A stretch of DNA of 63,433 nucleotides, the filler included, from Kipferlia bialata (taxonomy: Eukaryota): assembly GCA_003568945.1 (NCBI GenBank). It is 5 parts of 5 records of this genome, joined end to end, with 100 filler letters (N's around TTAATTAATTAA, not from the genome) between each part and the next. Parts side by side here need not be neighbours in the genome. Positions count along the whole stretch, not along the records: positions 1 to 16,307 come from BDIP01000615.1; 4 more parts are not named here. One strand, 5' to 3'. Position numbers and translations under genes: made by a program. The notes beneath the pieces were generated by a model. The model was not told the DNA's origin. It saw nothing but the letters and a program-made list of their open reading frames with translations, and did not search any database. Shown here in pieces: positions 296 to 42,730 of the stretch (position 1 is its first letter; the number at the start of each line of letters is the position of its first letter).

Positions 296-469
296 GGTTA
301 AGGCAGTGTGGTAACGTAGTATTGCACTGGGTTCGGTGTGTTTGGGGGGTGGAAACAGTGATTCGGCACCGACATTGAGCAGTCAAAAACGAAAAAGGGT
401 GTAGAGCACGTTTTGACATATCGACCTGGTCGATTTGACCCTCTCTCTTCTTGCACTCATACGAATACA

Positions 470-2529
470 ATGGCTGCTGAGAACACACCTGAGGGAAAGG
501 GAAAGGGAGGTCGTGAGGCTGATGCCACCGATGCCCTTGCCCAGTACTCCTACGAGGCCTTCATCGCCAAGTTCGGTGCCAAGGTATAGTGTATCTGTAT
601 CTATCATATCTATGCTACTATATGGCGGCCTGGTTGGGTGAGGGAGGGATGTCTACGTCTCTGTGTGTGGTTCGTGATTGTGTATGGCACGGTGGCGTAT
701 TATTGTTCCCTGTATGTGATGCCACATGTTGTGTGTAGATCAGTTTGTGTGGTATCTTCCCTGCTTAGTTGTATTGTGTCTACTCCCCCTACCTCGCTCC
801 CTCTCCATTCATCCCTATAGTGGTCTTCCCTGCTATGTTTATATGCACTTCTTCTTCTTCTTCTATCCTCTCTCTCTCTCTCTCCCTCCCTCTCCATTCA
901 TCACTGGATACTGATTCCCAGGGCATATCTCTTCGTCTCCCCCCCCCCCCCCCCCCCCCCCCCTTAAACCCTATGCCTACTCACCCTCAGCCCCCTGCCC
1001 CCGAGGCCAAGAGAAAGCCAGCAGCCAAGGTGGGTAGTGGAGATTCATATATGTCATTGTAGCCATATATGTAATAATGTATATTCCGTGATATACCTCC
1101 GATGTGGAGAAGGCCGCGAAGGCATACAATAAGTGTATATATATATACATCTTCATCTACATATTTGTTATAGGTCATCTATGTCACCACTCACCCCCAG
1201 CCCAGTGATGAGGAGAAGGCCGCCAAGGCAGCTGCCAGAGAGGCTGCCAAGATAGAGAGAGAGAGGGTGGCAGCGGAGAAGGCAGAGGCCAAGGTGGGTA
1301 CACAGTGTGTATTTGTATACTGCTCTCTCTCTCTCTCTCTCTACACACCCACACATATTTATGTATATAAACATATGCCCTCTACCCCCAGGCTGCCAGG
1401 GAGGCACAGAGGGAGAAGACCAGGCTGGAGAAGGAGGCAGCAAAGGTATGGTGGTATGGTCTACAATATCACTTGCTGAATTTCATGAGTATTTTTGTAT
1501 GGTTTCTCCCTTACTCCCCTGACCCTTCAGGCCGAGAGGGAGAGAAAGAAGGAGGAGAGAGAGAAGATCAAGGTGGGTGATGTCTCATTGTGTATAGAAC
1601 AGTCCTGCCACATCATACTCTGAATTCTAAACTCTATACTGTATACTCTGTACCCTGTACCCTGTACTCTATTGTCATATCCCCACAAACTGACCCCAGG
1701 CCGAGAAGGAGGCCGCCAAGGTGGAGAGGGAGAGACTGAGAGCCGAGAAGGCAGCCGAGAAGGCCAAGGTGTGCACTGACCCCCCCTCATTTACACTTCA
1801 TATCTTCACCAATCACTTTCTATGGGAAGAAGCGTATAGGATGTTCCCTATCCACAATGTAATGCATCCCCACTCACCTGACCTTTCAGGCCGATGAGGC
1901 ACGGGCCAAGGCCAAGGAGGAGAGACTGGCAGCTGCTAAGGCTAAGGTATGTATATATATATGTGTATATATATATGTGTGTATGTATATTCTTTCTGTA
2001 TAGTGTTATATCCCTATCCCCCAAGGCCGAGGCCAAGGAGGAGGCAGCCATTCTATTATGTAGACATGAATGCATCTTTGTACATATATATATGTATATA
2101 TATGTATATGTATACATATACATATATATCGTTATTATATGACCCCAGGCCGAGGCCAAGGAGGAGGCAGCCAGGCTCAGGGCTGAGGCAAAGGCTAAGG
2201 TATATAGCATAGTGATATTTATACATATGTATGTAAGTACAAATATATGTACCCCTAACCGCAGGCCGAGGCCGAGAGGGCTGAGCGGGAGAGACTCAAG
2301 GCTGAGAAGAAGGCTCTGCACGAGACTAACCAGAGGAGGATAGCAGGTGGGCTATCCATCACCTCTGTAGCGTCACCATACTCGTATCTAACCCCCAGAG
2401 GTGCTAGATGAGGACTCTGACTCCTGTGTGCCCTCCATCACATCCAGTGATGAGGAGGGGGAGGAGGGGGAGCAGCAGGCCTCCGATGCAGAGAGAGAGA
2501 GTGGCTCTGAGGAGAGCAGCAGTGAGGAG

Positions 2530-2560
<31 letters not shown>

Positions 2561-3877
2561 GTACCCCCGAGGCCTCTGAGGCAGATGCTCCCTCTGTGGC
2601 ACCCACACCTAGGGCAGCCGCTAAGCCAGTCACAGGTGGGGGTGTGGTGTGTTCTGTTGTATACTATGTGTATACATGTATACATGTATATGTATTGTTT
2701 TGCTGCCTTACCCCCCAGACTCCGACGCCTTCATATGTATCCCGACGTTCTTATATCCCTCTATGTTGTTTCAATCCCGTCTTACCCCCCAGACTCTGAC
2801 GATGAGTCCAGCGAGGCCTCCTCCGACTCTGACTCAGACGAAGAGGACAACCCAATGTCACTCCTGCTGGGACTTGGACAGGTACAGCATATACTTGTCT
2901 GTATGTGATTCAATTATCTGCCTTTTCAGTATCAGTATCAGTACCAAGTCAGTAGTGTCAGTAATACCATTGACTTTATCTCTTCCTAACCCACCCAGAA
3001 GTCAGCCCCGTCCACCCCTGCCAGACCCTCTGTGGAGGAGCCATCGGCCGCAGATGCTCAGCGCCTCAGGTATGCGCATATTTTAGGGTATATATGTACA
3101 ATATGAATGTGTAACCCCAGCCGTGACCTGCAGAGTGCCTCTCTGGACGAGATGTCCATTATTATACAACTAATGTATCAGTATACTATATAGTATATAT
3201 GCAAACATGCTCACTCCAGCCGTGATCTGCAGAGTGCCAGCCTAGACCAGATGTCCAGCATGGTGACTAGAGTGGCAGTGCAGAGCACAGGGGTCAAGGA
3301 CACAGGGGTGTCACTGCTCAAGGTGGGTGCATAGTATTGTAGTATTATAGTCCTTCTTGTTCGTGTGCCCCCCCCCCCCAAGGAGACGTATGTGTCATTC
3401 CTGGAGGTTGGCATGGCACTTGATACTAACAACCCCCCACCCCCCCCTTCCCCTCACCCCCAGCCCACCAAGCGCAGTGCCCTCAGCATGGACAAGGACG
3501 GGGTCAAGAAGGTATATGCAGATACTCACACACATATATGTATATATGCTGTCTGTATACATAGTATCCATGTATGAATGTATGTGTGTGCCCTCAGCAT
3601 GGACATATACGGGGTCAAGAAGGTATGGAGTGATAGTACACACACATATATGTATATATATCTATTTATACTAGGTATTCATGTTTGTATACGTATGTAT
3701 GTGTGTACTCAGCATGGACAAGGACGGGGTTAAGAGGTATTGTATTTGAATGTATATACAAATATGTATCTGGTGTCTACATATATTGTGGGTGTGCACT
3801 CGGAATGGAATTAGTCACTTTGCATGCTCACTCCCCAGGCCAAGAAGGCCAAGAAGACCAAGAGGTCCCAGAAGTGA
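470..3877 (+). CDS. Multi-exon K/A/E-rich coiled-coil protein with an acidic S/D/E tract and basic C-terminus (hypothetical)
   Basis: ATG at 470 (MAAENTPEGKG...FGAK). About 14 phase-compatible exons follow (AAREAAKIERERVAAEKAEAK; EDSDS...ESESES; ...KKAKKTKRSQK*). TGA at 3875-3877. Confidence 0.7.
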
Positions 3878-4009
3878 GGAGCCTAACACAGTCTATCAAT
3901 TTTGTGTGACAAGTGTGTCCGTCTGAGAGGTTGGCCAGTCGGTTTCTATATTGAAGTGTTGTTTCGTGTGGTGTCTGTCCATGTGTGTGACAGAGATTAA
4001 ATAGTCGTG

Positions 4010-4482
4010 TATAGACACTCTATACTATAGATTGTTGTTTCTTTATTGGCATATTTGGTAGACTGGTACTACTCATTACTGATGATCACTATTTCATACT
4101 TGTTTCCGGTAGGATGATACAACTAGCATAATCCAAGAAGGGGATATGCTGCGTCTACAGCACCCAAATGTCTCTTGGTCTATTGGCATGTGGTAGATTG
4201 GTATTCTTACTAATCATCACTGTCTGAGTATGAAACTACCTCTACAGCACCCCCAATGTCCTCTGAATTCTAGTAGAGTATTGCTTCTATTGGCATTTGG
4301 TAGATTGACTTCTTGCTGATCATTACTGTATGAGTGTGGTACTACATCTACAGCACCCCGATGTCCTCTGAATTCTAGTAGAGTATTGCTTCTATTGGCA
4401 TTCGGTAGATTGGTATTCATACTGAACATCTCTGTATGGCACTACAACGCTAATGCATCTACAGCACCCCGATGTCCTCTGT
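4010..4482. repeat. Degenerate tandem repeat (~107-nt unit) that includes the last codons and stop of the SDR gene
   Basis: CTACAGCACCCC(G/CA)ATGTCCTCTG recurs at ~4242, ~4348 and ~4459, and degenerately at ~4155. TATTGGCAT..GGTAGA recurs four times. Confidence 0.7.
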
Positions 4483-4819
4483 CCCTGTGTACTGGCCCTC
4501 CTCGTTGAAGAACCTGCCCTTCCTGGACCTGGCAGTCAGGAACTTCCACATGACCTGGGGTTAGGGTGGAGGTACTTATATACAAATGACACTGCACATA
4601 TAGATATATAACAGGGTACATGTACCTTGGGTGTGGTGAGCATCTTGTGGTATGTGCCGGAGGAGCCCTCCTTGGTGGCCCTGGGGTGAGAGGGGTATGT
4701 GTGTTGATGCTAAGGATACAATACACATACAAATCAATGCGACAGAAGGATGACACCATAGATACTGTGTGTTGTACAATTGTATGTACCAGATCCTTGG
4801 CACGAGGAATTCACAGAAT

Positions 4820-4862
<43 letters not shown>

Positions 4863-7256
4863 ATATACTAGAATACATATACCGGACAGTATGCACCTTA
4901 TCCTTGGCACGAGGAAGTCTGCCACTGAACTGGGCAGCTCAGCCAGGATGTTGAAGATGGGGACGGCCTCTGAACGGTTAAGATAGGATACATATGTCAA
5001 TACAAAGAGAGAGAGAGAGAGAAGCAGGATGTTGAAAATGGGAACAGCCTCTATCAATGAGAGAGAGAGAGATACATACAGAGCGAGAGAGAGAGAGAGA
5101 GAGAGGCCGCTCTGCCAGGATGTTGAAGATGGGGACGGCCTCTGGGGGGTTAAGATATAGGATACATATGTCAATACAAAGAGAGAGAGAGAGAGACGTG
5201 TTGGGTTAAGATGGGGACGGCATCTGCGGGAATGAGAAATATCGGTCATATAGTAGGATATGATACAAAGTGCACACATTTAGAGACACTTAGAAGTAGA
5301 ATTACACATATGCAAGAATCTGGGTTGAGATAGAGAATGGAGAAAAGTCTTGGAAAGTACCTGGTGTCACATCGTGCAACAGTAGGTCTGTCAGCACCAT
5401 ACCAGGGGAGATGGTGTGGATGCCAACACCAGTGCCCTGGGGTTGGAGGAGTGATATCGAGTAGTTACGTAACATATCGAGTAGAGACATAACATGTCTA
5501 GTAGAGACACAACAAAAGTACAAGGACAAGGACGCTTGGTCTCCTCATATACCATATATGATATATGTATGCAATGATACTTGGGACACATGCACTCTCA
5601 CCTTTGTCTCCTTGCCAAGGACCTTGGACAGATAGGGGATGGCGTTCTTGGAGACACCTGGGGTGAGAAGAGAGAGATGATATTTGATACGTGTAGTGAT
5701 ACATAATATACCACCCTTACTCACCGTATGTCATGTACCCAGCTGTCATCATTCCATTGGACCCAGCCCCATCCATGTTGAAGATGTGGCCATGGCTATG
5801 ATGAGATGAGTGTGGCACAACTTATAGTATACATAAATAGTATCAATACAACCACATACCCCTTCTCAATCATGTATGGCAGCACAGCCCTGCAGCACAG
5901 CAGAGTGCCAGTGAGGTTGGTCTCAATCACAGACTGGGGATTAGGGTGCAACAAAGAATACTATGTTGGATTATACACACTCTATACCTTGATCTGGGTG
6001 GGCTCTGTCTCCACAAAGACACATACAACTACCACATATGATATATATATACCCATATAGTCCCGTCAGTATAATAAACCTTTATCTGGGCGGGCTCTGT
6101 CTCGACTAGATTGACGTTGATGCCGTTGATACCGGCATTGTTGATCTGGGGGTGAGGGAGAGAGAGAGAGAGAGGGAGAGGGAGAGGGAGAGTCACAAAG
6201 AGAGGCAAGGGGGGGAGAGTTGATGCCGTTGATACCGGCATTGTTGATCTGGGGGTGGGGGAGAGGGGAGACTAGGACAAGCAGAAAGAGTGAGTGAATG
6301 GGTGTATAGGTATCTCATATGGGGGGAGTGGTTGTATTACCCTATAACTAAGAGAAGAGAGTCACTTGTAATATGTACAGTGTCCCTCACCCACATGTCT
6401 ATGCCCCCCAGCCACTGTGCTGCACTGGTGACAAGGGCGGTGAGGGAGGGGAAGTCTGAGGGTAAGGAGTGAATGAGAGAGAGAGAGAGAAAGAGGGAGA
6501 GGGAGAGAGGGAGGCGAGGGAGGGGAAGTCTGAGGGTAAGAAGGGTAGAGTGAATGAGAGAGAGAGAGGGAGAAGAGTGTGGAATAGTGGTCAGAAGGGA
6601 GGTGAGGAAGGGGAAGTCTGAAGGTGAGTGGGTGGGAGAGGAGAGGAGATGTCTTTGAAGAAAGAAATAGTCACAAGGTGAGGAGACATATATGAGGGGA
6701 ATATGGGGTGGGGGAGGGGGGGGAGGGGGTTGAAAAGTGAAGAATAATATACTCATTGTACATTACCCGTGACATCAGCCTGCATGACCCTTGCTCTGTC
6801 ACACACGTCGGGGTCAGAGAAGAGAGATGCCTGGGGGTAGAGATGACTAGTGCTGCCAGATAGAAATAAATATGGGTCCACACCTGCATTTCTGCCACCT
6901 TCCTCTCACTATAGAGAGGTATAGCCACAACAGTACCCACAATGCATATATATACTATTACACATAGTACTGGTATTACACACCTGCATTTCTGCCACCT
7001 TCCTCTCACTCCTGGTAGTAACAACCACAGAGTCACCCTCCACCAGGAACCGTCTGCAGAGGGCAAGGCCAATGCCCCTGGGGGTTAGGTGTATAAGGTT
7101 ACTGTGATGTATACTATAGTCCATCAGTTATCAGAGGGGATGAGAGAGAATGGCGGGGGGGGGGGGGGGGGAGGGCGTAATCACAATACAGAACACGCCA
7201 CTAGTATGTCACGTGTGAGTATAATACCTTGTTCCTCCTGTGATTACTACTCTCAT
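4459..7256 (-). CDS. Short-chain dehydrogenase/reductase, NOL/NYC1 (chlorophyll b reductase)-like
   Basis: The spliced product has MRVVITGGTRGIG (TGxxxGxG), INNAG, TNLTGT, HIFNMDGAGSNG, YxxSK, HTISPGMVLTDLL, FNILAELPSSVADFLVPRIR and ends ...EDIGVL* (TAG 4461-4459). Confidence 0.85.
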
Positions 7257-7537
7257 GTTGTTCGTGTGAATGTGTCTGAGTGAAGAGAGACATGTCAAAC
7301 TCACAATCTGACACCGAGGAAAAAGGGACCGGGCTGACAAACACCAATGCCGCAACATTGGGCGTACTCTCTTGACTGCGTGCTCTCTTCCAGCACTGCT
7401 GGTGTGGCAATAATAGTCAGAGTATTACTGACTTGCGCAAAAGGAGTGGAAATACTGGTGGACCGCTGCACACAGAGAGAGGAAACCGCATTGGGGTCCC
7501 TGACCAGTGAAGTGATAGCACCGACTTCGATTAGGAC

Positions 7538-10500
7538 ATGCCCCCCTCTGCCACCCCTAGACCATGCGTCACAGAGGACATCCCACAGCTGTGCAGGTAT
7601 GTGAGATGCACTATGTATGACTGTTAGTGTCAGTAACGGTGTATACATATCGGCAATGTAGGTGTGTGGTCAATCCAATCCATTCACCGTTCTCTTCACC
7701 TCTTAGCCCCGGTCTCGCACATCCTCCCTCTAACATATACTGTGTCTTTTGTACATACCTGAGTTAGGATATCCCCCCCCCCCCCCCCCCATTACCCCAG
7801 TTGCTACACTATAGGAACATATGAATGTCATTCTTCTGTGGACCTCTTCTCTGCCCTCACCCCACAGGGACATGGTATGTGCCCAGGACCTGTCTCTGAC
7901 TGCAGCCCTTGCCATGTCCTGCATCACAGTGGGAGACACATATGCACCAGGTATATATAGAGTGTATAGTATATATAGTATATACATGTNNNNNNNNNNN
8001 NNNNNNNNNNNNNNNNNNNNNNNNNNNNNNNNNNNNNNNNNNNNNNNTATGTATATATATGCAGCCCTTGCCATGTCCTGCATCACAGTGGGGGACACAT
8101 ATACACCAGGTATACATAGATAGTAGGGTACATGTGTTCATCTACTCCCTCTCTGACCCCAGGTGTTGCCCTGTCTCTGACTAGGAGTGACCCAGACATG
8201 GCAGAGCTGGTCAAGGTATGTATGTAATATACCTCGTCAAGGTATGGGATGGATCATGTATACATATAGCACCTATCTATGAATACCGGTACAGGAGTGA
8301 CCCAGACATGGCAGAGCTGGTCAAGGTATGGGGTGGAGTATGTCTCTATACCACCTGTATATATGTAAACCCTGGTGGATATGAGATAATAATTGAGTGG
8401 GTACCTGTACTACCGAGAGTTCTTTCCTTACCCTAGAGCATGCGCAAGAGATATGGCGTGCTACCCAGTGTCACAACACCAGACTCAGACTCTATGGAGG
8501 AGAGAGGGAGAGAGAGAGAGAGAGTGGTGACGAGGTCATCCTCCTGTCAGACTGACCCAGTCAAGGAGAGGGAGAGGGAGAGACCCACGGTGGCCAGGAA
8601 GATACCAGGTGCCATCATATATAGTACATCGGTATTTGTATACAGTACACAACATATATATACATGATACTGACCCCCCAGGTGTCCCTGTGCACACCCA
8701 GACTGACCCCTTACCTACACCTGCCCCTGTACACCCACCCTTATACAATAAGGGCAATGGAGGTGGGGGTACCTGGGGCATGGCTGATACCATAGTGCCT
8801 AAGAGTGGCTCCACCCCTGTCCTAGATCTGGAGGATGATGAGTTTGCCATGGACTTTGGGGATGATAGCGTGGGTGCACCCAAGGCACCCTCCTCTACTG
8901 TACAGAAGGGTCCACCCAAGCCCTTCAGGGGTAAGCCCGCCAAGCACAACCACCACGAGAGGCAGCAGCACACGGTGAGTGTGTGTTTGATCTATGTCTA
9001 TCCTCATCACTATATATATATGTATTCTATTTGTCACGAGAGGCAACAGCACACGGTGAGTGGATATGGGCTCTGAGTATACATGCACACATATATATAC
9101 ATACATATTTATGGGTGTGCATGTCTCACCCTCAGATTGGCCTGCAGAGTGCTGCTGAGCTAGGGGGGAAGGCAGCCAAGAGAAAGAGCAGGTGATTACT
9201 TGTGATTACATATCAGTCTACTCTCTCATTGGTGTCTGTGGATAGGATATATGTCATATATAGAACACCCATCCTTCTGACCCCCAGGGCCACGAGTGCC
9301 GCTGCCCTGGGTCTATCGGCCAACACCATACCAGGTAGGCGTATCAGTTTGTAATGTATCGTGATATTTCTCAACCATATACCAACTACTGATATGCAAG
9401 TGTTCTCAGAGCCTCTAGTAAGTGAAACTCAATGCAGTTCTTTGAGACCAATATACATAATTCTATAGTATATACTATAGTATATAGTACAATAGTAAAT
9501 GTATCAATTCGTCACACCAGGTGCCCGTAAGAAGAAGGAGCAGGAGGATAAGAAGAGGAAGAAGAAGGAGGGTGATAGCGACAAGGTGGGGTGTACTTAT
9601 CATATAGATATATATATATATATACTAATGTATATATCATATCGAGCAAATTTATATATTTATGTATATGAGACGAGTATATATATATATATATATATAT
9701 TGAGTTATGCAATACTACATAAATCCCACTGACTGCCAGGCCTCTGAGGACCAGCAACTGTTGGACACCATCAGAGAGAACATAGTCCAGGACACAGGGG
9801 TTACACTAGATGAGGTTGTGGGGCTGAGGTGGGTACATCACAGCTACATCCTTATATATATACATATACTCTCGATATGTGTCCAAACTATCCCTTACAC
9901 TAGAGTGGCCAAGGAGCAGCTGAACGAGGCCCTTGTCATATTCAGATATATATGTGTTATAGNNNNNNNNNNNNNNNNNNNNNNNNNNNNNNNNNNNNNN
10001 NNNNNNNNNNNNNNNNNNNNNNNNNNNNNNNNNNNNNNNNNNNNNNNNNTATCACTATCTCTCACCCTCAGAGTTGCCAAGGAGCAGCTGAACGAGGCCC
10101 TTGTGATGCCCATCAAGTTCCCAAACCTCTTTGGCGGGAAGCACGGCAGGTGGGGGTTCATAGTATATGCACTATAATATATATATATTTATATATATAT
10201 ATATATGTGTGTGTGTATATATATATAGTGGAAGCACGGCAGGTGGGGGGTTAGTGCTATACACATAGTGTAGCTATATACCCCTCCCTAATGATCAGGA
10301 CACCAGCCAAGGGCATCCTGCTGTACGGACTGCCGGGAACAGGTATGGACGGGATTGTATATACATATATATATGTATATACTTGCATGTACATGTCTTA
10401 TAGATGCCTGCCTGACCCAGGCAAGTCCTTCCTGCAGTCTGTGTAGTATCCATGTTTCTACTATATTGTGAATATATACAATACTGATACCCCAGGCAAG

Positions 10501-13081
10501 TCCTTCCTGGCAGCTGCCGTGGCAGGCCAGATCAACTCGACATTCTTCTCAGTGGTCTCATCATCCATCGTGTCGAAGTGGCAGGTGTGTATATATGTAT
10601 GTATATATATATATATTGTTTGTATATCCCCATTATGATATGTGGTGTCATCATCCATCGTGTCGAAGTGGCAGGTACGCATATTATCAGCATCTACCGT
10701 ACCGTTAGAGTAGTTGTCTGCATAATGATATGTGGTCTCATCATCCATCGTGTCGAAGTGGCAGGTGTGGACTATGTATATTTACAGCTTGATACTCCCA
10801 TGTATATCGTGTAGTTTACCCACTCATCCCAGGGCCAGTCTGCCAAGCTGATCAGGGCCCTCTTTACAGAGGCCAAGGCCAGATCACCCAGCATCATATT
10901 CATCGATGAGATAGGTATTATTTAATATGTCATGATATATTCCCACATATTGATTGTACTGATCTCAGACTCTCTGTGCACCTCCCGTTCCTCCTCTGAT
11001 AGCGACGCATCGCGTAGAATCAAGACAGAGTTCCTGACCTGTATGGACGGTATGTATATAGTGTACACTATATATCTTAGTGTACCAGCATGACTGTCGT
11101 TCTCACACCCCAGGCGTGAGTGCCAAGGCCGATGGGTCCAAGGTGCTGGTGCTGGCAGCCACCAACTACCCAGACGCCCTGGACTCGGCACTTCTGTACG
11201 TAGTGTGACTCATACACAAACACATATATTTATCTTACTATATAAATATATATATTCTTATTCTTCAATATATATATATATATATGTATATATATTCATA
11301 TCCACCGTAGAGCATTTCAATCTCACATAGAGATTGTATCTGATATATTGGAACCTCTCACCCCTAGGAGACGCTTCAGCAAGAGAATATGCATCGACCT
11401 GCCAGATCTGGAGGTGAGAGTTGGTACTTCCTGTATCTGTGGTGTATACAATCTTCCGTATGGCTTCACGAGGTCTTTTGTGTCATGTTTCTAGCCTGAA
11501 TGGAGGACGTCGTGTGTACCTATTATTGCACTGCACTTTGTAGTGTAATCCTGCCACCAACCCTCAGGCCCGTTATGTCCGCCATGTTCCGTCTGTGTCT
11601 AGTCCACCAAATACTCCTGTATATATGTAGAGTATAGTAACATTGTATTAAACTAACCCTCAGGCCCGTGCCGCCATGTTCCGGCTCAGGTTGATACACT
11701 ATATACTACATGTATAGTGTATACATATATATAATACACACAATACATAAGTATATATTATTTATCTTATCCTAGGCCCGTGCCGCCATGTTCCGTCTGA
11801 GGTTGAGTGCCCAGTCAGATGCAACCCCTGAGCAGTACACACAGTTCGCACAGGCCACAGAGGGTATGTATATATATATTTATATGAACATCTCTATACA
11901 TATATAGAAATATACCAGTACACTCAGTTCGCACAGGCCACAGAAGGTATGTACCATGTGGTGTAGTAGTGTACATATGTGTATACATATTGGGGGAGAG
12001 AGAGAGACAGAGAGAGACAGAGAGAGAGAGAGTACGCTCAGTTCGCACTCTTAACAGAGGGTGGGTGCACTATTATGCATACCATACATACCATATACAT
12101 AAGTATGTATATGTCAAGCTCCGCTCCGATTCCAGGCTACTCTGGGACATTGAGCATGTGCAAGAATACTATTGATTCTGTTATAGTAACTGATTTTACT
12201 ATATGTTCGGCATATATCCATGTGGTTCAAGCTCCCCTCTCACCCCAGGCTACTCTGGGAGTGACATTGAGCATGCGGTGTACTTGACAATATGACTCAT
12301 ATGAGTATATGATATTCATTATATGTTGTCATTCATGTATACTTTCATGCTCTCATATTCCAGGCTACTCTGGGAGTGACATTGAGCATGTGTGCAACGA
12401 TGCCCTAATGGAGCCAGTCAGAGATATGAGGGAGTGCCACTGCTTTGCACTGAGGTACGTTTAGTGAGTATTACATGCTACTCTGTGATGACTCTCTCTG
12501 GGTTCGTGTCCCTCTGTCTCCAATATCTACACCAATGTATACACCTTGTATACTATGTCTCACCCACAGGCATGTTCTGTATGCTATGCTATCTCCCTGT
12601 CCATTTTCCGCAAAGCAGCGCAACTCGTCCAGCATATACGTAACCATATATTGTATACTATAGGCTCACCCCCAGGGATGGTCTGTATGAGATGGCAGAC
12701 CCCGCAGACCCAGACGCATGGTGAGCATATGTCTTTGTATATATATATATATATATATACGCATATTGATTTACTTATACAGCTATATACTCTCTCTCTC
12801 GCTCCGTCTCTCTCTCGCTCTCTATACGTATATGTATATATATATCCCTCACCCTCAGTGAGGTATCCATGATGCAGCTGGATGGAGACGTGAGACCACC
12901 ACCCACAACAGCTGAGGTATCGAGGCGCATATATCTACTATGTATATACACTATATATATGTATATATATCGGATATGTCACCCTCTCACCCAGCATGTC
13001 CTCAAGGCCATATCTCGGACCAAGTCCTCTGTGGCATCAGCAGACAGACAGAGGATAGCACAGTTCAAACAGACACACTGA
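7538..13081 (+). CDS. VPS4: Vps4-like AAA+ ATPase with a long low-complexity N-terminus
   Basis: Spliced exons give TLDEVVGLRVAKEQLNEALVMPIKFPNLF, Walker A GILLYGLPGTGKS, pore loop VSKWQGQS, Walker B IIFIDEID, RRIKTEFL, AATNYPDALDSALLRRF, GYSGSDI, a beta-domain-like insert and a Vps4_C-like end (RTKSSVASADRQRIAQFKQTH*). The start codon is inferred. Confidence 0.8.
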
Positions 13082-26486: not shown

Positions 26487-27896
26487 ATGTATGCCTCTAT
26501 ATGTCGGTGTTTCACTATATGTCTACATATGCCTGTCCCAACATCAGAGATGTGCTGAAGAGGCTTGACCAGTGCCGCCCTGACCAGAATCTGTTTGTGG
26601 CAGCAGCCCAGTCCATGGCATCGGACATATCCCAGGCAGTGGATGAGAGGGTGGCTAAGGTAGGGATATCAGAGGGGTGCATGAATATATATGTGTGGAT
26701 AGATATGTCACAGGCTGTGGATGGGATTGTTCATACATGTCACCTTGCACCAGACCCACCCCCAGCTCGAGGCCACTACCTCTGCCTCCCTGTCCACCCA
26801 GATAGAGAGAGAGAGACAGGCCGCCCTGGCAGATGTACAGACAGCGGTGGAGGAGGGGGAGAGGCGCATAGCATCGGCACTGGCTAGTGCACAGGCACAG
26901 GTATGGACAGAGACATATATACATAGGATATATTCCTGTATACTTTGTGTATATACCTCTACTGACCCTAGGTTGAGGCCGACAGACAGCGTGCCCTAGC
27001 CGAGGTTGAGACTGAGAGGACCAAGGCAGTGGCCGATGTGGAGACACAGAGAGAGAGGGCACAGGCTGAGCTGACGGCCACTGCTGACTCACTCAGTCAG
27101 AGGGTACACGCACTCATGCAGGGTATGGAGGATGAGAATGAGTATATGTATGTGTGTGTATCTGTGTTGCTAAGTGCCCCCCTGACCCCCCTGACCCCCA
27201 GACATGGCCGATGAGCGTGATGCCCACCTGGCCTCTATCTCTGAGGGCATAGCAGACAGACAGAGACAGGCACAGACAGCATGCACAGCGGCACTCACTC
27301 AGGTGGGGGTCAGCGTCAGTGTAGTGTGGTGTATTGTGTAGTAGTATATCTCTGACACCAGGCCGTTGAGGGTGTGCAGACCCAGGTTGTGCAGGGCATA
27401 GAGGCCTCCCTCACTGATGCTGTCAAGGAGAGGGTGCATGCCCAGATGCTGGATGAGGGTATGGCCAATGGGGTGGGGGCAGTGATCAGAGGCATAGCAG
27501 ACACACACCTCGAGGAGATAGAGGCCAGGCTCACAGGGCAGGTACGGGAGGGTGGGGTGGCTTTTATAGTGTTTAGTGTTATTTGATATACACATCTGAC
27601 GCCCAGGTCCTTGCCAGGCTCAGAGACGTCAGAGAGGGAGGGGAGGGCGAGGCAGAGAGTGACACGCCAACACCCACCAACCCCATCAGTGCCGGTGACC
27701 TCAGGGCCCAGCTCCATCTGTCAGCCAGGCAGAGCAGCGTGGCACTGTCAAACCTCACGCAGGTACATGTATATGTATCCAATGTATCCAAGTAGATAGT
27801 AATACTGTTTGCATACTATACTTCCACTGACGCCAGGACTATGAGAGGCTGAGGCAGAGGGTGCAGCTCATGGAGAGGAGGAGGCGGAGGCGCTAG
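24520..27896 (+). CDS. Multi-exon coiled-coil hypothetical protein
   Basis: MSGGTDNRQPGK|SIKVDANQYP...; EMLLFRRRLNSIEDTF; VGRERETLQGEVSRQL; ...DYERLRQRVQLMERRRRRR* (TAG 27894-27896). Confidence 0.65.
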
Positions 27897-28872: not shown

Positions 28873-31800
28873 CTCATCAACAGGCGCCGTATGGCCTGCC
28901 CGACGTGTCGGGTGGTGCGTCTGAAGAGCCACAGTCGGAAGAAGACTATGAGCATGGACACCACTGTACATGCCACCAGTATACATGCAGAGATGGGGGA
29001 GTGGGGGTAGAGGACAGCCGCGAAGCCAGTCTGGTGTTAGAGTATGGCTGCTGAAGTAGTGTGGGAAGGTAGACTACTTAGATACCTTGGGACAGAACAG
29101 CTTCAGGGCTATGTACATGGGCAGCACACACTGTACACTCGTGATGGCAGTCACTGCCGTGTGGTTCTTCTGTATGATAAGGGGTGGGGGTATGGCATAT
29201 ACACACCAATGGTAGAATACACACCACTCCTCAACTACTGACTGACGCAGAGTGCTGATTGGACACACGTACCATATCCTTGAGAGTATCGAGGAAGAAG
29301 AGACACACTGTACACTATACACTATACACTATACACTATACACTATACACTACACAGTCAGATGCAGAGTGTTAATCGTATACTATACGTACCATGTCCT
29401 TGAGGGCATCGTGGAAGGTGAGGAAGGCGCAGTTCTTGTAGGCCTCGCCGGTACTGCCCTGGGGGGTAGAGAGGGGGTATAGGTTATCTGTACGTAGGCA
29501 GAGAGATAGATATCGATAGACCCCCACCTTTATGATCCTCCTGATGGCCCTGATCATCTTGGTCATGGTACCCCAGTGGTGGAGTCTGTGGGAGAGGGGC
29601 ACGTCCTTGGAGCGGGGTGCCTTGGTGGTAGGGGCATCGGCGGCATCGACACATGCACTGCCTGCCCCACTGTCTGTAGATGGTAGGCCTCTGAAGGCAG
29701 TGTCCCACCTGGGAGGTTAGATATATTCAATACATATAGATATATGGATATTGAACTGTTACCCCACCTCTCCCCTGGGTCCTGTAGGATGTGTGCTCTG
29801 TGCTGAGTGGTCAGTATGTGGCAGGGGGTGCCTCGGGAGAAGGCGGCATCCATGACCTAGACGTTAGAGGGGTATATACATACACTTCCGATAATCTGTC
29901 ATGTGTTACCCTCACCTCAATATCGTGTAGGATGAGAGCATCGAGCACCAGCACCACCCTGTCCTTGGGGGTACCATCCCCCTCACCCTCTCCCTCTCCC
30001 TCCCCCCTTCTCTCCTCTGCCTCTGCCTCTGTGTCTGTAAAAGGGTCCATGACCTTGCCACTTGTGGAGGATGTACCCCCCGACGACAGTCTGTCCTTGC
30101 CCTTGCCCTCATCACTCCAGGCTCTCTCTCTCCCTCTCCACGGCATGGACCCCTGCCCACTCGTGGTGTCCTCTCCCCCTGCCGCCCCTCCCTCTGCCCC
30201 TGGCTCCATGTAGCACTCATTGAGCTGTGATGAGTCGTCAGGCACCTGGGTGGGTGGGGCAGCCAGTCCCCACATGACACACCCTCCCTCTGCCGTGGTG
30301 ACTGGCAGTGTATCCGTAGACACAGACAGGGTCAGGGGGGCATCCGGTATCATGGCATTGGGCAGCACAGAGCGCGAGGAGGCATGGCCCGTGGAGCCCT
30401 GGGGGTCAGGGGCGGTGGGCTATGCATATACACATCCATACACATATAACTACAACATACCGTCTCTGCCCCTTGTGCCCCATCCTCTGCGTCATCGGTC
30501 GAGGGTCCGTACCAGGAAGGATATGCATCGTCAGACTAGAAGTGAGAAGGGAGAAGTCCAGAAGTCCTTTGTATTATGATAATGAATGTCTATGTTTATA
30601 TATATATGCCCACATACCGTGTCTGTGAGAGCTGCCTCCACTATAATCTCCTGTCTGACCCACTCCCCTGAGCCTGTGTCTGACTCACTCTCGTTGTAGT
30701 GCGAGTGGCTGCCAAGGGAAGAGGCAGGGACCTAGGGTGAGGGGGTATGTCCAAACACTCAGTATATACACATATATATACCCTCACCTGCCATGATCTG
30801 AGAGGCCTTGTGCTCCCTCCCCCTGTAGAGCTGCCGTCCCCACTGGACAGGGACGCAGACCCCGAGGGGTGGGTGGATGACTTGTGGTGCATGGAGGGGG
30901 AGTGGCTAAGAGAGGCAGTGCCCCCGATGTACATGCCGAGTGTTCTGCTGCACTCAGGAGAGGTGGTGGAGACGGAGACATCTCTCTCTCTCTCTCTCTC
31001 TGACCCCAGGCGCCCTATGGGTACGTGGGTGTGACTCGGTGAGTACACACCCATGTATGAGTCTGTACCCGTGTCACTGTAGCTGTCAGAGTCTAGGCCC
31101 AGGTCGAGGTAGGGCCGGGAGCAGCTGCGGCTGATGGCCTAGTATAAGAGGGGGGGGGGGGGGCTATGTATTGCTAGTCTCTATATATACCTGGGGTGCA
31201 TCTGTCCCCAGTGTGCCGAGGGGGTTGCGGTACAGACCGGATGCCTCGGCAGACAGACCAAACATCAGACGGCGCATAAGGACACGCTGGGAGTTGGAGG
31301 GACACATCTTGATGTGATGTATATATAGAATATTTCCAACTACCACCCATGCTATACCGTACCTCTGGCACCGGCACCTCAGGCACCTCCAGGTACTGTG
31401 CCCCACTGCCAGTGGTATACCCTGGCACGGCAGTGAAGCTGGGGGTGAGGGCATGTGCCCACTCTATATAACACCTATATATGTATACATACATGTACAC
31501 ACCTAGCTCTGATGACTGTCCAAGGTGTGTTGAATATGGCATGCAGTGCGTGGTCATCCCCCTGGTGGGTGGGTCTGTCCAGCATCCTGGGCACCTCGGG
31601 GCTGGGGGGGACGGGGGACACAAACTGGGGGTGGGACAGGAGAGTAGTATATCAAGACAGTAGTAACATGTCTACTATCCCCATGTATAGGAACTGTTGC
31701 CAGTCTAAATGTAGTATCATCTGTACACACAGTCAAGATACCTTCCCCTGTGCCCCCTTGCTCTGGAACAGCTCTCTGACACTCACTGTGTCCAGGTAGG

Positions 31801-32657
31801 CAGAGGCAGACAGGATGCGGCTGGTCCAGCTAGAGCCGAGCTGGGGGTGAGCACAGAGGGACGAGAGGATGGGATTACAGAATCTACGCGATACCAACCC
31901 TACCTCGAGCACCGCCTGTACATATGTCTGGAGGGTGCCCTCTGTGTCACTCACAAAGCGAGGCATGTCGCTGGGGGTGTTGGTGAGGGGAGAGGAAGGG
32001 CAATAGTATACCAGTGACATACATATACACACATATATGTATACGCTCTGTGGCCCTACCTCTCAGCCACATACACCCTTCTGACCGGGCATGCTCCCTT
32101 TCCCTTAAGTAGGAGTGACATGGGGGGGGAGACGGCAAACTCGACATGTCTGGAAGGTGAGTGTACATAAAGTGTAGTAGTATAGTGTAACATAGTCCAC
32201 AGAGACATACCTCAGCTCTGGTGCCTTGAGAGCATCTGAGAGTGGTGCCTGCAGTCTCTGTGCCACCTCCTCTGTCACCAGGGTCTCAAACACACCCGCC
32301 TCGCACATGAGCCTGGAGGGGTCAGAGGGATATTGACCAGTGCAAGGTGTGCATATGGTAGGGTACATGCTGAGATAGTCTATACCTCGCTGCTGTGTTG
32401 ACTGTGTCTCCAAACACATCGTACATGAGCTCGTAGGTCCCTAGTACACCACACATCACCCACCCACACGCCACACCAGCCCTGGGGGTGAGTGTCACGC
32501 ACACATATACAACAGCACATACGGTCAATGATAGAGGTGTATCATACCTAATACCCTCGACTGTGGGCAGGGGTATGCCACTCTCCCTGAGGGCAGAGAC
32601 CCCTAGGGACACAGCTGCTATCATGCGGCACATGGACAGGCACTGGTGCTGCAGAAC
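28873..32657 (-). CDS. Class III nucleotide cyclase (adenylyl-type) with downstream transmembrane segments; both ends truncated
   Basis: Exon 32481-32386 reads AGVACGWVMCGVLGTYELMYDVFGDTVNTAAR, then LMCEA. A long low-complexity linker follows, then hydrophobic exons (ISACILVACTVVSMLIVFFRLWLF). Confidence 0.75.
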
Positions 32658-32803
32658 CTAGCAGTCGGGGGGGGGGGGGGGTAGAGGCAGAGGCAGATAT
32701 ATANNNNNNNNNNNNNNNNNNNNNNNNNNNNNNNNNNNNNNNNNNNNTTAATTAATTAANNNNNNNNNNNNNNNNNNNNNNNNNNNNNNNNNNNNNNNNN
32801 NNN

Positions 32804-34802: not shown

Positions 34803-35383
34803 TCTGAGAGCACCAATGCGTGGATAGGCGACCAGCAGAGGCAAGCATCCGGTTTTTCTCCGATTCAAGCAAACGCTACACCCTTTCTTCAATGACGCTC
34901 AATGCTATACAATATTTTCCAGGACGATTCCCAGCCTGGCTTTCCCAGCCCATCAGTGATCTAGCCGTCTACTAATAGCTGATTTACCGTGGTGTTATGT
35001 ATACAGTTTCTGCTAGGTCAAGTAGGAATTACTCATTCCGAATTAGTCTTGTACTGGACCAAAGTATAATGAATTGTAATTCCTCTCTCTAAGTCCATCA
35101 CACTTTGTGAAGAATGGGAACTCTTCCCAATTATACCTTGCCTGTGTGATTCACACACCTATTCGTTCACGGATTACCATCTATTACTCCTCTTGCTACC
35201 GACCCTGCCACTCCCAGGCCATGACTGACATACCAACCCTCTATTACGTAACTGAATGTATATAGTCCCACTAGGCCTAGGCCTGATACCGACCCTCCCT
35301 CTCCCAGTCCATCACTGGGTACAAGTCATATATTACTAGATTCTCAACGTAATAGTAAAGATAACCAGTTGTAGCACTACAAG

Positions 35384-38300
35384 TCATCGACTCTGTCTCT
35401 CCCAGTCCATGACTGGGTACGTGCCAAGGTCAAGGTCAGGACCATCAAGAGACCTGGGGTTAGAATATTTATGTAGAATATATAGAGTCTTCCTTTGTAA
35501 TACGCCCAGGCCAAGGATAGGACATCACTCAATAAGCATATATGTTGGGTAATGTATGTGATCAACATGAACTGTTTTTGTACCTGATCATGAGTGCTCC
35601 CTTTGCCCCCATCTTCCGTCTGCACGAGTAGACTGGAACATACTCTGCACCAGCCTCTATCTGAAGGGCCTTCACAACACTGACATGAGAAACTGATATA
35701 TAGTGTATACACTGAGATGAGCTGTATTGATATATATAGTGAGATACTAATATATATGGTGGACACAAAACTGGCAGAAAGAAAAACACTTGGTAAGCTG
35801 AACGCGATTCTAAGGGACAAGAATGGAATGGAGCTGACCATGCAATCAGTCCATGAAAAAGCAGAGAGGTGCTTACGTACACTCCGTCCATGCACAGTTG
35901 GAGCCAGCCTTTGCTGGAGTCCACAAGGAGTCCCAGGATACTCTTGCCACCCTATGGTGAGTGGAGCAGAAAACATATACAGGAACACGTACATACACAC
36001 ACACACACACACATATATATAAATATACCCAAGTGTGCACCTTCCTGATATTGATTGAACTAGTATACAATTTATGCGTACCTTCCTGGTCCATGGGTCT
36101 GTGGTGCCATTCTCCACGCTGAGGGTAAAAGCAGAAAGGGGAAGAGAAGGAACAGGGAGATAGTCAGAGTATAACACTATTATATGTATATAATAATAGG
36201 TGTATATATGGCAATTCTTACCTTCCCCCCATGTGGCTCCACTCTGTCCTTGCAGACTGGGATCAGATAACATCGTGGTTTATACACAAATATATACACA
36301 TCATTAGTCAGATAGATCAACGCATCATATGGTAAGATACGGACTGCGGGGATACATCATAGTGGGTAATGTCTCTTCCAGTACATAAATACATAGATAT
36401 ACCAAAGACGCCCAACCACCGCACACATTGAATGATACCCTACTACGCTACTTACATATGCTTTTGTATTATCAATGATACCTTTGCATTTCCCACCATC
36501 CACCAGTAGGATCCCTCAGTGGTAATGTAGTTGCTGGGGGTCAGAGAATAGTGTGTCCTGGAAACATGTATATGCATACAATACATATATACATGTATAT
36601 ACGTACTCATTGTACTGTAGTCTGTCGAGTGTGTATGTATATACCTATACATACTAAAAGCACATATATATATATATACATGTATATACGTACTTATTGT
36701 ACATCAGTCTGTCCAGCGAGTCTGCCCTGGCTATACCAAGACAGGTGTCGATGGCCTCAGACACATGCACCTCAAACTGGGTGTTAGCACAAGAATGACA
36801 ATGAACTTTACAACTGATAAGCTATTTGAATATCATAATACAGTGTCGATACAGTGGGACATGCACCTCAAACTGGGTGTTGGGACAAGGCAACTAAATA
36901 TATCATGAGAAGAAAGGTACTACTATACGTGACAAACTAATTCACCACTTGGGATATACCTCAATGTATGTGGCCCTATTAATAAATATAGAATACCGTT
37001 ATTCTATATTATATTCTATTTCTATATTTTTGAAGCCCTAACCTCAATGTATGTGGCCCTATTGGCCTGGCATGTGTAGTCACAGGCCACAGCGGCATAT
37101 GCATGGGCCTTGGCTGGGGTGAGAATATATAGTCAGGTACGTACATTAGTTATTAGTAATATATAAGTTCGTCACAGGCCACTGCGGCATATGCATGGGC
37201 CTTGGCTGGGGTGAGAATAGTCACATAAGAGAATGTATTAATTATTAATATTAATTATTAATATTATTAAAATAATTATTAATATTTGCATGGGCCTTGG
37301 CTGGGGTGAGGCAAGGATATAGGTACATGATATGGCGGTATTAGTATATATCAGAATGATGCAACTAACTCATCAGAGTCGTATACCTTGCATCTTGCTG
37401 TATAGCTCAGAGCCAAGCACAGGCCTTGCGTCACTAGCGCTGGGCTGACTGGCGCCTGAGGTCAGGATAGAGCAAATAGTGTGAAGTATGGGACACAGAA
37501 CACAGACTGATGAGGGGCTGACAAGTTTCATGGCGGAGTATCAGAAGAGTGTATTTGTTTGCTAGTAATTAACAAGAATTAATACAATACTATATATATA
37601 AATATTACACATAAACAATAGTACCATTATACACACATAGAAAGATACAGGACTAGTACCTGAGGGAGGTATGGAGACTGTCTCGTATAGCACACATATT
37701 ACAATATAGAAAGGAACCAATAATGTACTAATAATAATAGCTAATATATATATATATACCTGGGGGAGGTATGGTCACTGTCTCTTCCATTACATAGACC
37801 TTGGCCCTGTGTGGACCAGAGGCAAAGGAGACTTGACCTAAGGGTGAGAATATACTGCAGATTGGATTTGATGCACTACATACAAATGTCTGAAGCAAAG
37901 GAGACCTACCCTAGGGGGTGAGAATAGAATCCACTGTAGGTGATTAGACTATCCACTGTATGGAGACTGAATGGACTGCAGATTGTCAAAGTGTACTACC
38001 TTCTATTCTATGGTATTGGAATATAGTGCACCGGTATACCTGGGTACACAATGTACTAATACTATATAATATATAAAATAATATTCATATATTATTTCTA
38101 TATAATACAATTATATATATAGTTATAATACCTGGGTACACAATGTCCTTGGGTACTCTGTGTGGGGGAATAGGGGGTGGGGGTACACTCAATACAGGGG
38201 AGGCATCTCTCTCTGATACCTCCAACTCTGCCTCCCTCTCTATCTCCCCCTTATCCACAGCCACCTTGGCAGCAACAGTCTCTCTCTCTCTCTCCGCCTT

Positions 38301-41300: not shown

Positions 41301-42730
41301 AGAGGTCTGAGAGAGAGGGAGAGAGAGAGATGCATCTTGGACAGGCGGGACTGCCTGGACCCTTTTCACAGGAACTGAAGGATCTGAAGGTACATGATGT
41401 ACAGGGACATGGCTTGACACTACTACTGAGGGAGGAACCTCATTCCCAGGTGGAACCTGCTCTCTGAGTGGCCGAACCGTGATCACGGGAACAGAGGGTA
41501 CAGGGATATGCTTAGGTGCAGGCTTTGCCACGGCCTTTGCTTCTCCAGACCCCCTCACCACTGGCACCTCCTTCCCAGGTGATATGTGCTCTCTGTGCGG
41601 GGGGTATGATATGTCAATGGCCGAGTCATCGCCCAGCAGACGCTCTGCTTCCCTCTCTCCCTCCTCAGGGGTGTCAGTTCTCTCTCTCCCCCCCTCTCTT
41701 CCCTCCTTGTCTACTGTGACAGGTGTTTGGTTTCTCTTGAAGGCATTTAGAAACCTGATAGTGAAAATAGTTGTTTGTGGATGGATAACACAACCTGATA
41801 CTCCAATGATATATGTGGGTCGGTGTAATTGAATATAGTCCTTTTCTTTAGTTAATAAATGAACTGCACTATTGATAATGCACTATTGATAATGAAACAT
41901 TAGATATATATCATGGCAATTATAATACACTGGGGTAACTCTCTTCATATATGTATAGTACCTTGGTGTCTCTGTAGGGGTCTGGGCCACAATGCGTCTC
42001 TCCCTCTCTCCCCCTCCCTCTCTCTCCCTCTCTCCCCCTCCCTCCCTGTCACTGTGGAAGTGGGTGTCACCGGTCTCCTCTTCACTGCTGGAGTCACCGT
42101 ATGAGGAGGGGCTCTGGAATTAGATACATCCAACATGCGCATATACGTATATATATGTGTGTGGGTGGGTGAATATACATTTGTGATTGAGCTGAGAGAG
42201 AGATACTCTCTTCACTGGTGGAGTCATCATACGAGGGACTCTGAGGTTAGGTACACACCAATATACACACATATGAAAATAAGAGATGCTCTATTAGGGG
42301 TGGAGTCACTGAAAGAAGGGTCTCTAATATAAGAGAGAGGGAATATTGATATATATATATATATATATATATGATTGAGTTTAGAGAGAGGTTCTTCACT
42401 GCTGGAGTCAGCATATGAGGGGGAGGGGCTCTGATGTTAGATACATCAAGAATATATACTAGATACATATATATATATATATATATTTATATATAGAAGT
42501 GATTGAGTTGAGAGAGAGATATTTGAATAGTTGGTCTCACCATATGGGGGACTACTGAGGGACCCTGGTATTAGAACGAGTGAAGAGACAAAAGTATATA
42601 TAGGAACTAGGAACTCTGATGTTATATACATTTAGAGTACTATTAATATGCATACATAAATATATATATATGTATACAAACAGCGATTGGGTCGAGAGAG
42701 AGATTATTTGATAGTTGCTCCAGCCATAGG
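35384..42730 (-). CDS. Large R/E/P-rich protein with a C-terminal SPRY (B30.2)-like domain
   Basis: C-terminal exons (37111-35384) splice to RATYIEFEVHVSEAIDTCLGIAR...GGKSILGLLVDSSKGWLQLCMDGVVVKALQIEAGAEYVPVYSC...RQSR*. Upstream lie a large RE-dipeptide exon (~38131-38990) and a P/V-rich exon (~41208-41755). The 5' limit is uncertain. Confidence 0.6.

What the first reader, a model, noticed from the sequence alone, without database searches (positions are those of the whole stretch)
10470..12460. Nested polarity of decoy splice sites: donor echoes follow the exon, acceptor echoes precede the next exon
Seen in the Vps4-like gene: real ...GTCGAAGTGGCAG|GT (10584) is repeated with its GT at ~10674 and ~10764. 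The acceptor plus GCCCGT... occurs at ~11568 and ~11665 before the real exon at 11776. Donor copies lie at ~11946 and ~12060, and acceptor copies GCTACTCTGGGA at ~12135 and ~12249 precede the real one at 12364. In the introns I examined, the order is real donor, donor echoes, acceptor echoes, real acceptor. No decoy pair defines an exon, and the outermost sites must be joined. Inference: this implies strict exon definition despite short introns, or stepwise inside-out (nested) splicing in which inner decoy pairs are removed first.
Basis: partly seen in the sequence, partly recalled or inferred. Interest (0 to 1): 0.75.

Follow-up and report, generated by a model that had tools for sequence, protein, structure and literature searches.

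The report
Exon-edge echoes that evolved like genes
In the free-living protist Kipferlia, a third of the introns examined hold short copies of the neighbouring exon edge with full-strength splice signals that the one transcript seen skips; their nested order follows from how such duplications stack, but they differ from the real exon mostly at silent codon positions, so they are likely former working exon edges displaced by repair from a diverged gene copy.

Summary
In Kipferlia bialata, 84 echoes lie in 49 of 144 introns; donor echoes follow the exon, acceptor echoes precede the next, and 10 of 10 mixed introns are ordered. The order is geometry, not mechanism: only the first donor copy and last acceptor copy stay joined to an exon. 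The class is known (amphioxus 'mirages', human F7 intron 7), and this scan has found it in several animals. An RNA contig joins the outermost sites. Inside-out splicing is unsupported: 43 of 49 introns are one-sided or unbalanced, and no recursive sites form. Exon-side choice is supported, because echo sites score as strong as real ones. Unexpected: echoes differ from their exon at fourfold-degenerate sites 5.6 times more often than at non-degenerate sites (ratio 0.18, CI 0.11-0.27; neutral simulation 0.49). Echo acceptors differ at 5 of 14 bases yet keep full strength, and most spacers are unrelated to their neighbours. Best reading (inferred): echoes are former functional exon edges, displaced when aborted homologous repair copied about 100 nt from a diverged allele. 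No second allele was available to test this.

The parts
7538..13081 (+). Vps4-like AAA ATPase gene KIPB_003277, 21 exons, 595 aa; 14 echoes in 9 of 20 introns
10496..10584 (+). real exon (Walker A end to ...SSSIVSKWQ); donor GT at 10585
   Evidence: RNA contig piece 10493-10579 followed by 10830; annotation match
10642..10676 (+). donor echo 1: 33-nt exon tail (one synonymous change) plus GT
10732..10766 (+). donor echo 2: 33/33 identical exon tail plus GT; spacer unrelated to echo 1 spacer
10833..10914 (+). real exon
11368..11413 (+). real exon; donor joined to 11776
   Evidence: joint 11411>11774 cut +2
11552..11595 (+). inner acceptor echo (AG at 11566-11567, exon head with a 4-nt insertion)
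11648..11694 (+). outer acceptor echo (exon head from 11664, two synonymous changes); acceptor scores 9.8 bits vs 3.9 for the real site
11776..11863 (+). real exon; donor joined to 12364 across 500 nt
   Evidence: joint 11862>12363 cut +1
11916..11948 (+). outer donor echo (exon tail with silent changes, plus GT)
12031..12062 (+). inner, more decayed donor echo plus GT
12061..12135 (+). 75-nt core between innermost echo donor and echo acceptor; looks like a normal intron, inferred to be the oldest intron here
12120..12160 (+). inner acceptor echo (exon head from 12136, 4-nt deletion)
12233..12275 (+). outer acceptor echo (27/27 identical head from 12249); acceptor scores 20.5 bits vs 7.2 for the real site
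12364..12454 (+). real exon
10405..10434 (+). short acceptor echo in intron 10343-10495
4155..4370 (-). three stop-codon echoes in the 3' UTR of the neighbouring dehydrogenase-like gene: same process, no splice site; an RNA contig runs through two of them and the real stop

Best explanation
The echoes are real ~100-nt duplications across exon edges that the sequenced mRNA skips, and they are likely former working exon edges pushed into the intron when aborted homologous repair copied a new edge from a diverged allele. SHOWN: (1) Each unit is 12-59 nt of exon edge, the splice signal and a 42-130-nt AT-rich spacer (median period 97). Only the first donor copy and last acceptor copy touch an exon, so the nested order is automatic. 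(2) The mRNA contig joins the outermost sites. (3) Echo sites are as strong as real ones. (4) Echo-versus-exon differences are mostly synonymous, echo acceptors diverged without losing strength, and most spacers show no homology to the neighbouring unit. INFERRED: (5) The spliceosome picks the sites closest across a full-length GC-rich exon (58% GC vs 37% in introns) and ignores a short GC-rich island, removing the whole interval in one step. (6) A break near an exon edge invades an allele that is alike only in the exon, copies that allele's edge plus about 60-90 nt of its intron, and rejoins the other end without trimming. The old edge and old intron survive as echo and core. Later conversion from alleles may refresh the exon part. 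About one in seven units has a homologous spacer and looks like an ordinary same-allele duplicate.
For: Census: 84 echoes in 49 of 144 introns, null 2/1025, 10/10 ordered. RNA: 7 GT-AG joints listed, all at outermost sites, plus piece boundaries for 10584>10833; three more echo introns skipped whole in gene 1. Site strength: acceptor echo 12.5 vs real 12.4 bits, background -4.0; donor 6.5 vs 7.1, background 3.5; echo at least as strong as own real site in 26 of 40 donors and 23 of 44 acceptors. Codon signal: 78 synonymous vs 50 non-synonymous where 26% of possible changes are synonymous. Fourfold 57/348 vs non-degenerate 43/1306, significant for each of the four bases and in RNA/annotation-based genes alone (26/182 vs 19/674). 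Fixed 12-nt windows 20/150 vs 9/564. One echo per family: ratio 0.18, CI 0.11-0.27, against 0.49 in simulations of a neutral echo run through the same detector. Echo acceptors differ at 5.1 of 14 intronic bases with a median change of +0.55 bits; neutral decay predicts -6.0 (range -9.9 to -2.8). Spacer homology z>3 in 12 of 76 pairs and unrelated to exon-part identity (rho -0.09). Homologous-spacer units look neutral (6/139 vs 2/35); non-homologous ones do not (18/561 vs 25/144). Inner echoes are more decayed (14 vs 6, p=0.006). Core length equals normal intron length. Fornicates lack NHEJ and Rad51A, and metamonads lack Rad54 (PMC8516963 passages); aborted allelic synthesis with microhomology re-invasion makes tandem duplications and RAD54 suppresses them in mouse cells (PMC12309385 abstract; the template there is the sister chromatid).
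Against: No second allele or strain was found: the metagenome scan returned only distant AAA proteins at 34-42% identity, and the assembly's second copies of P0002 and P0003/P0004 are protein-identical, so they are not the diverged source. Spacers near random identity (0.54 vs null 0.45) beside fourfold divergence of only about 0.17 need introns to turn over several times faster than silent sites. The class difference in fourfold divergence is not significant (p=0.11). Only 3 of 81 spacers are under 45 nt where uniform truncation predicts half; the model does not explain that floor without added selection or a fixed tract size. RNA evidence is one contig per gene from one run; contigs drop rare forms, so transient inner splicing is not excluded. 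85 of 144 introns rest on my own gene models.
Confidence: 0.55

Rival explanations
1. Ordinary mirages: same-chromosome tandem duplications that then decay neutrally, perhaps homogenised with the adjacent exon by gene conversion. The splicing part is as in the best explanation.
For: Explains the order, the period, the age gradient, the frameshifts and lost GT/AG and the 12 of 76 pairs with homologous spacers. It is how mirages are described in amphioxus (PMC3087553 passages).
Against: Predicts a non-degenerate/fourfold ratio near 0.5 (simulated 0.49); observed 0.18, CI 0.11-0.27. Predicts weakened echo acceptors; none seen. Ten exon-adjacent echoes of 25 nt or more have at most one mismatch yet no spacer homology.
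Confidence: 0.2
2. Echo sites are used now: the intron is removed stepwise, inside-out or recursively, and selection keeps the echo splice signals.
For: Echo sites keep full strength. The core has normal intron length and spacers rarely fall below the minimum intron size. The 11864-12363 intron is balanced, with a 75-nt inner pair. Contigs cannot show transient intermediates.
Against: 43 of 49 echo introns are one-sided or unbalanced. No site is regenerated after an inner cut. It gives no reason for a codon-position bias in sequence that is never translated; echo use keeps frame without a stop in only 6 of 81 cases. Echoes also occur at stop codons in 2 of 10 genes. The single contig laid showed no inner joint.
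Confidence: 0.1
3. Assembly artefact: haplotypes of a heterozygous or mixed culture were stacked in tandem by a short-read assembler, which would mimic allele-like divergence.
For: The genome is a SPAdes Illumina assembly (PMC5874029 methods). The period is close to a typical 100-nt read length (recalled, not in the section read). Two echo introns of this gene contain N gaps. Two of three tested genes occur on a second contig.
Against: Echo tails are preceded by AT-rich sequence that no functional allele would carry. Some echoes have frameshifts or have lost GT/AG. Inner echoes are more decayed. Up to five versions per site occur. The RNA contig runs through two stop-codon echoes and the real stop with no mismatches. 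The paper reports one eukaryotic coverage peak, and no diverged second protein is on record.
Confidence: 0.07
4. The spacer is newly made filler DNA inserted at a staggered break that duplicates the exon edge, and the echo is later refreshed from other copies.
For: Most spacers have no homology to their neighbours; identity drops to background within about 8 nt of the donor.
Against: Filler alone gives an echo identical to the exon at birth, so it predicts the neutral ratio of 0.49 and decaying splice signals.
Confidence: 0.08

Closest known systems
Amphioxus 'mirages' (Adh3, globins BflGb6 and BflGb9, troponin C, PGBD5); PMC3087553 and PMC3902484, passages seen
   Same: Tandem copies spanning an exon-intron boundary, at either 5' or 3' boundaries, many with AG/GT kept, and normal mRNA made.
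   Different: Here in a fornicate protist with short introns (median 89 nt), in 34% of introns and about a third of intron sequence. BflGb6 units are 81-100% identical over the unit; here most spacers are unrelated while the exon part shows protein-level constraint. The passages I saw report no codon bias.
Human F7 intron 7 37-bp VNTR and 'oriented scanning'; PMC1557585, abstract and discussion seen
   Same: Functional donor copies follow the real donor and only the most upstream is used.
   Different: One locus, identical monomers, donors only. Kipferlia shows the mirror rule at acceptors too, where the last site wins even when an upstream echo scores higher.
Exon-centric versus intron-centric proximity rule; PMC9225289, passages seen
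   Same: Under exon definition the sites closest across the exon are chosen, as here.
   Different: That paper ties exon definition to introns over about 250 nt and expects the inner pair to win in short introns. Kipferlia cores are about 96 nt, yet the outer sites win.
Nested and recursive splicing, stwintrons, intrasplicing (search listing only)
   Same: Introns containing inner splice-site pairs.
   Different: These need balanced pairs or regenerated sites; neither is present here.
Tandem duplication by aborted allelic synthesis plus microhomology re-invasion; PMC12309385, abstract seen
   Same: Proposed engine for the duplication step.
   Different: Shown in mouse cells with the sister chromatid as template. 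Use of a diverged homologue is my inference.

Membership tests
Mirage (boundary-spanning tandem duplication) | Unit contains an exon edge and its splice signal, copied head-to-tail into the adjacent intron | tested here: met
   84 echoes, most anchored within 3 nt of the intron-facing exon end (36 of 40 donors, 40 of 44 acceptors); GT kept in 34 of 40, AG in 38 of 44
Mirage (boundary-spanning tandem duplication) | Normal mRNA made from the outermost copy | tested here: met
   one RNA run, contigs only
Mirage (boundary-spanning tandem duplication) | Minisatellite-like similarity over the whole unit, intron part included | tested here: inconclusive
Mirage (boundary-spanning tandem duplication) | Copy-number instability between haplotypes | not testable with these tools
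   No second haplotype or genome held. One 105-nt UTR unit is missing from the RNA contig but is flanked by a 42-nt identical run, so contig collapse is equally likely
Nested (inside-out) splicing | Balanced inner donor-acceptor pairs | tested here: not met
   6 of 49 introns balanced
Nested (inside-out) splicing | Inner junction reads or lariats | tested here: inconclusive
   None in the 1 contig laid; contigs drop rare forms
Recursive splicing | AG|GT ratchet site with a true acceptor upstream and a donor regenerated | tested here: not met
   2 of 38 acceptor echoes are AG|GT (donor scores 0.2 and 0.8); 4 of 29 AG-ending donor tails reach the 5th percentile of real acceptors
Exon-definition splice-site choice | Of equal-strength sites, those nearest across the exon are used | tested here: met
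Exon-definition splice-site choice | Cross-exon complexes; exon skipping when a site is mutated | not testable with these tools
   Needs minigenes; composition-based recognition as in plants (PMC2682935 passages) or first-come donor use fit the same data
Vps4 (host gene) | Single AAA cassette with lid and Vps4_C | tested here: met
   PF00004, PF17862, PF09336; VPS4B E=5e-80 among solved structures, below two-ring Cdc48/p97 hits
Vps4 (host gene) | N-terminal MIT domain (recalled as typical of Vps4) | tested here: not met
   No MIT hit at E<=0.001; filed only as Vps4-like, no tree built

The most novel reading that the evidence does not exclude
Kipferlia introns grow by a splice-site replacement ratchet: exon edges are repeatedly overwritten from diverged alleles, and each displaced, still functional edge is archived inside the intron. 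A single genome would then record past alleles and hidden outcrossing. A reduced, short-intron spliceosome would have been driven to strict two-sided exon definition, testable at thousands of natural splice-site competitions if the window is typical.
Probability: 0.35. Interest if true: 0.8.

Novelty: new variant of a known kind. Interest (0 to 1): 0.6.

Why it matters
Two points. First, the textbook expectation is that short introns are recognised across the intron, so the inner pair should win. Here equal or stronger inner sites bounding a normal-size intron are skipped, on both sides, in a lineage with a reduced spliceosome (87 of 174 proteins, PMC6679479 abstract). If the window is typical of the 124,912 introns (PMC5874029), the genome is a very large natural test of how exons are defined. 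Second, untranslated sequence that carries a protein-coding selection signature points to a way of making mirages that was not in the passages I read: copying from diverged alleles. It is directly testable with a second strain and could be checked in the animal mirages this scan has already collected.

Tried and rejected
No whole genome is held for this window, so the census covers the window only. The run search listed one holder, X1, guessed to be RNA; its GT-AG joints show it holds spliced RNA. Whether it comes from the assembled culture is unknown. It has no raw reads, so absence of inner junctions is no evidence. The metagenome scan for relatives gave 79 loci at 34-42% identity, none used. 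A first gene-model pass over-called echoes as mini-exons; I replaced it with per-gene models. Six of 17 modelled intervals were left out as low-confidence, and one predicted mini-exon (20347-20376) was removed by hand as an echo. One ambiguous hit (2025) counts among the 84 and was dropped from then on. Rejected ideas: echoes as in-frame alternative ends (6 of 81 keep frame with no stop; period mod 3 is even, 28/29/25); alternative tail swapping through hidden internal sites (no AG or GT pattern visible at breakpoints, by inspection); echoes as relics of lost mini-exons (most are shorter than the smallest real exon, 34 nt, and lack an upstream acceptor); weaker echo sites as the discriminator; base composition as the cause of the codon bias (holds for each base); detector bias (simulation gives 0.49). 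Literature searches and scan look-ups showed no description of these echoes in Kipferlia; I read only passages and no supplements, and subscription papers are not searched.
Full report
Origin and gene. An exon at 8684-8974 matched one protein at 100%, KIPB_003277 of Kipferlia bialata, 595 aa. It has AAA, AAA_lid_3 and Vps4_C domains and no MIT hit, so 'Vps4-like' is fair. A 21-exon model at 7538-13081 translates to it exactly. No whole genome is held, so all counts are for this 63-kb window, which is five contigs joined by N-linkers.

The observation. One run, X1, holds spliced RNA. Laid on 10055-12500 it gave a single 2166-nt contig at depth 88 with seven listed GT-AG joints: 10149>10299, 10342>10496, 10914>10969, 11049>11114, 11195>11368, 11413>11776 and 11863>12364. 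The 10584>10833 joint is read from piece boundaries, since its row fell in a skipped repeat. All use the outermost sites. On 400-16300, 15 of 50 joints were shown, 12 of them GT-AG; those over echo introns (1029>1201, 3069>3220, 3511>3839) are also outermost. Contigs drop rare forms, so this shows the main product only.

Census. I used 11 gene models with 144 introns: 59 from RNA joints or annotated proteins and 85 from my own model; six weaker intervals were left out. Aligning each exon to its flanking introns found 84 echoes in 49 introns, against 2 hits in 1025 mismatched pairs. Forty are donor-side, all downstream of their exon; 44 are acceptor-side, all upstream. All 10 mixed introns read donor echoes first (P about 1e-4). 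The median period is 97 nt, and echo units make up 33% of intron sequence. Density ranges from 12 of 13 introns in one gene to 1 of 18 in another.

The order is geometry. If a stretch spanning a donor is duplicated, only the first copy remains continuous with the exon; at an acceptor only the last does. The old intron stays in the middle. As expected, the core between the innermost sites has normal intron length (median 96 vs 89 nt, p=0.63). The same process makes echoes of stop-codon regions in 2 of 10 genes, with periods of about 90-110 nt. The class is known: amphioxus 'mirages' (PMC3087553 and PMC3902484, passages) and the human F7 intron 7 repeat (PMC1557585, abstract and discussion). I was led to these papers by earlier notes of this scan.

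Nested splicing is not supported. Only 6 of 49 echo introns are balanced; 39 are one-sided and 4 unbalanced. An inner cut in a one-sided intron would use up the only partner site, and none is regenerated: 2 of 38 acceptor echoes are followed by GT, both weak, and 4 of 29 AG-ending donor tails reach the 5th percentile of real acceptors. The balanced 11864-12363 intron could in principle be cut inside-out (75-nt inner pair), and contigs cannot exclude it.

Exon-side choice is supported. Echo acceptors score 12.5 bits against 12.4 for real ones and -4.0 for background AG; donors score 6.5, 7.1 and 3.5. Site sequence therefore cannot be what is read. The exon-centric proximity rule fits, although it is described for introns over about 250 nt (PMC9225289, passages). 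Echoes carry at most 59 nt and 75% of their exon, and exons are 58% GC against 37% for introns. I infer that a full-length GC-rich exon is recognised and a short island is not. True cross-exon assembly, composition-based recognition as in plants and first-come donor use are not separated by these data.

The unexpected part. Identity is about 90% on the exon side and falls to background within about 8 nt of the donor and about 16 nt of the acceptor. Spacers of neighbouring units are clearly homologous in only 12 of 76 pairs, and exon-part identity does not track spacer homology (rho -0.09). Echo-versus-exon mismatches number 78 synonymous and 50 non-synonymous, where 26% of possible changes are synonymous; by codon position they are 35, 14 and 79. 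Fourfold sites differ at 57/348 and non-degenerate sites at 43/1306. This holds for each base and for the RNA/annotation-based genes alone, in fixed windows, and between neighbouring echoes (14/94 vs 13/336). With one echo per family the ratio is 0.18 (CI 0.11-0.27); a neutral echo beside an exon that fixes silent changes gives 0.49 through the same detector. Amino-acid changes lean conservative (p=0.03). Echo acceptors differ from their real site at 5.1 of 14 intronic bases but lose no strength, where neutral decay predicts -6 bits. Yet echoes cannot be translated: 6 of 81 would keep frame without a stop.

Reading. Sequence that shows coding and splicing constraint but is not used must have been copied from, or have been, a working exon edge that differed from today's as one allele differs from another. 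The simplest route is a break near an exon edge, invasion of a diverged allele through exon homology, synthesis of about 100 nt into that allele's intron, and rejoining without trimming. The newcomer sits next to the exon and the old edge moves inward. This fits the normal-length core, the greater decay of inner echoes (14 vs 6, p=0.006), and the neutral look of units with homologous spacers (6/139 vs 2/35) against the rest (18/561 vs 25/144), though that class difference is not significant (p=0.11). Fornicates lack NHEJ and Rad51A and metamonads lack Rad54 (PMC8516963, passages); aborted allelic synthesis yields tandem duplications in mouse cells (PMC12309385, abstract). This mechanism is inferred. 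Against it: no second allele was found, introns would have to diverge several times faster than silent sites, and the floor of about 45 nt on spacer length (3 of 81 below) is unexplained.

Artefact. A short-read SPAdes assembly of mixed haplotypes would mimic allele-like divergence. But echo tails abut AT-rich sequence that no allele would carry, some have frameshifts or lost GT/AG, the RNA contig runs through two stop-codon echoes and the real stop without mismatches, and no diverged second protein is on record. I put this at 7%.

Verdict. Observation confirmed; exon-side choice supported; nested splicing unsupported. This is a new variant of mirages, notable for its density in a short-intron protist and for the coding signature in the copies. 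Searches showed no prior description in Kipferlia; I read passages only and no supplements. Interest 0.6.

Noticed in passing
window 16308-16407, 32704-32803, 49099-49198, 60312-60411: Each is N44-TTAATTAATTAA-N44: the window is five contigs joined by an artificial linker. The first (16307 nt) and third (16295 nt) match the contig lengths listed for P0001 and P0004.
   Followed up: yes
window 3837-4552: One RNA contig spans the 3' ends of two convergent genes (plus-strand gene at 470-3877 and minus-strand dehydrogenase-like gene ending 4459), which suggests overlapping 3' UTRs; a contig across two genes does not prove it.
   Followed up: partly
window 35200-35384 (minus) and 4155-4459 (minus): Stop-codon echoes in 3' UTRs with the same period as splice-site echoes.
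   Followed up: yes
window 56283-59068 and 35384-42958 (minus): Both genes have a protein-identical second copy on another contig (KIPB_005480/KIPB_003373; KIPB_006031/KIPB_003285, 869 of 869 aa). Assembly redundancy or recent segmental duplication.
   Followed up: partly
window 16712-17584 (+): Adenosine deaminase (PF00962, E=3e-66) with an 873-nt uninterrupted first exon, unusual in a genome whose exons are mostly 35-120 nt.
   Followed up: partly
window 48077-48787 (minus): MORN-repeat protein (PF02493, E=4e-50) in a 711-nt uninterrupted frame.
   Followed up: partly
all 11 gene models: Echo density is very uneven: 12 of 13 introns at 18899-23284 but 1 of 18 at 28873-32657, 1 of 15 at 52688-56103 and 2 of 15 at 24520-27896. 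Unexplained.
   Followed up: no
window introns: By eye, acceptors carry a branch-like CTNAC a few bases before a C-rich CAG, as in the fused branch point and 3' site of Giardia and Trichomonas (PMC6679479 passages); spacing was not measured.
   Followed up: no
window 16409-16450: A stretch at a contig start resembles the 3' half of a tRNA by eye; ARAGORN found no tRNA in the window.
   Followed up: partly
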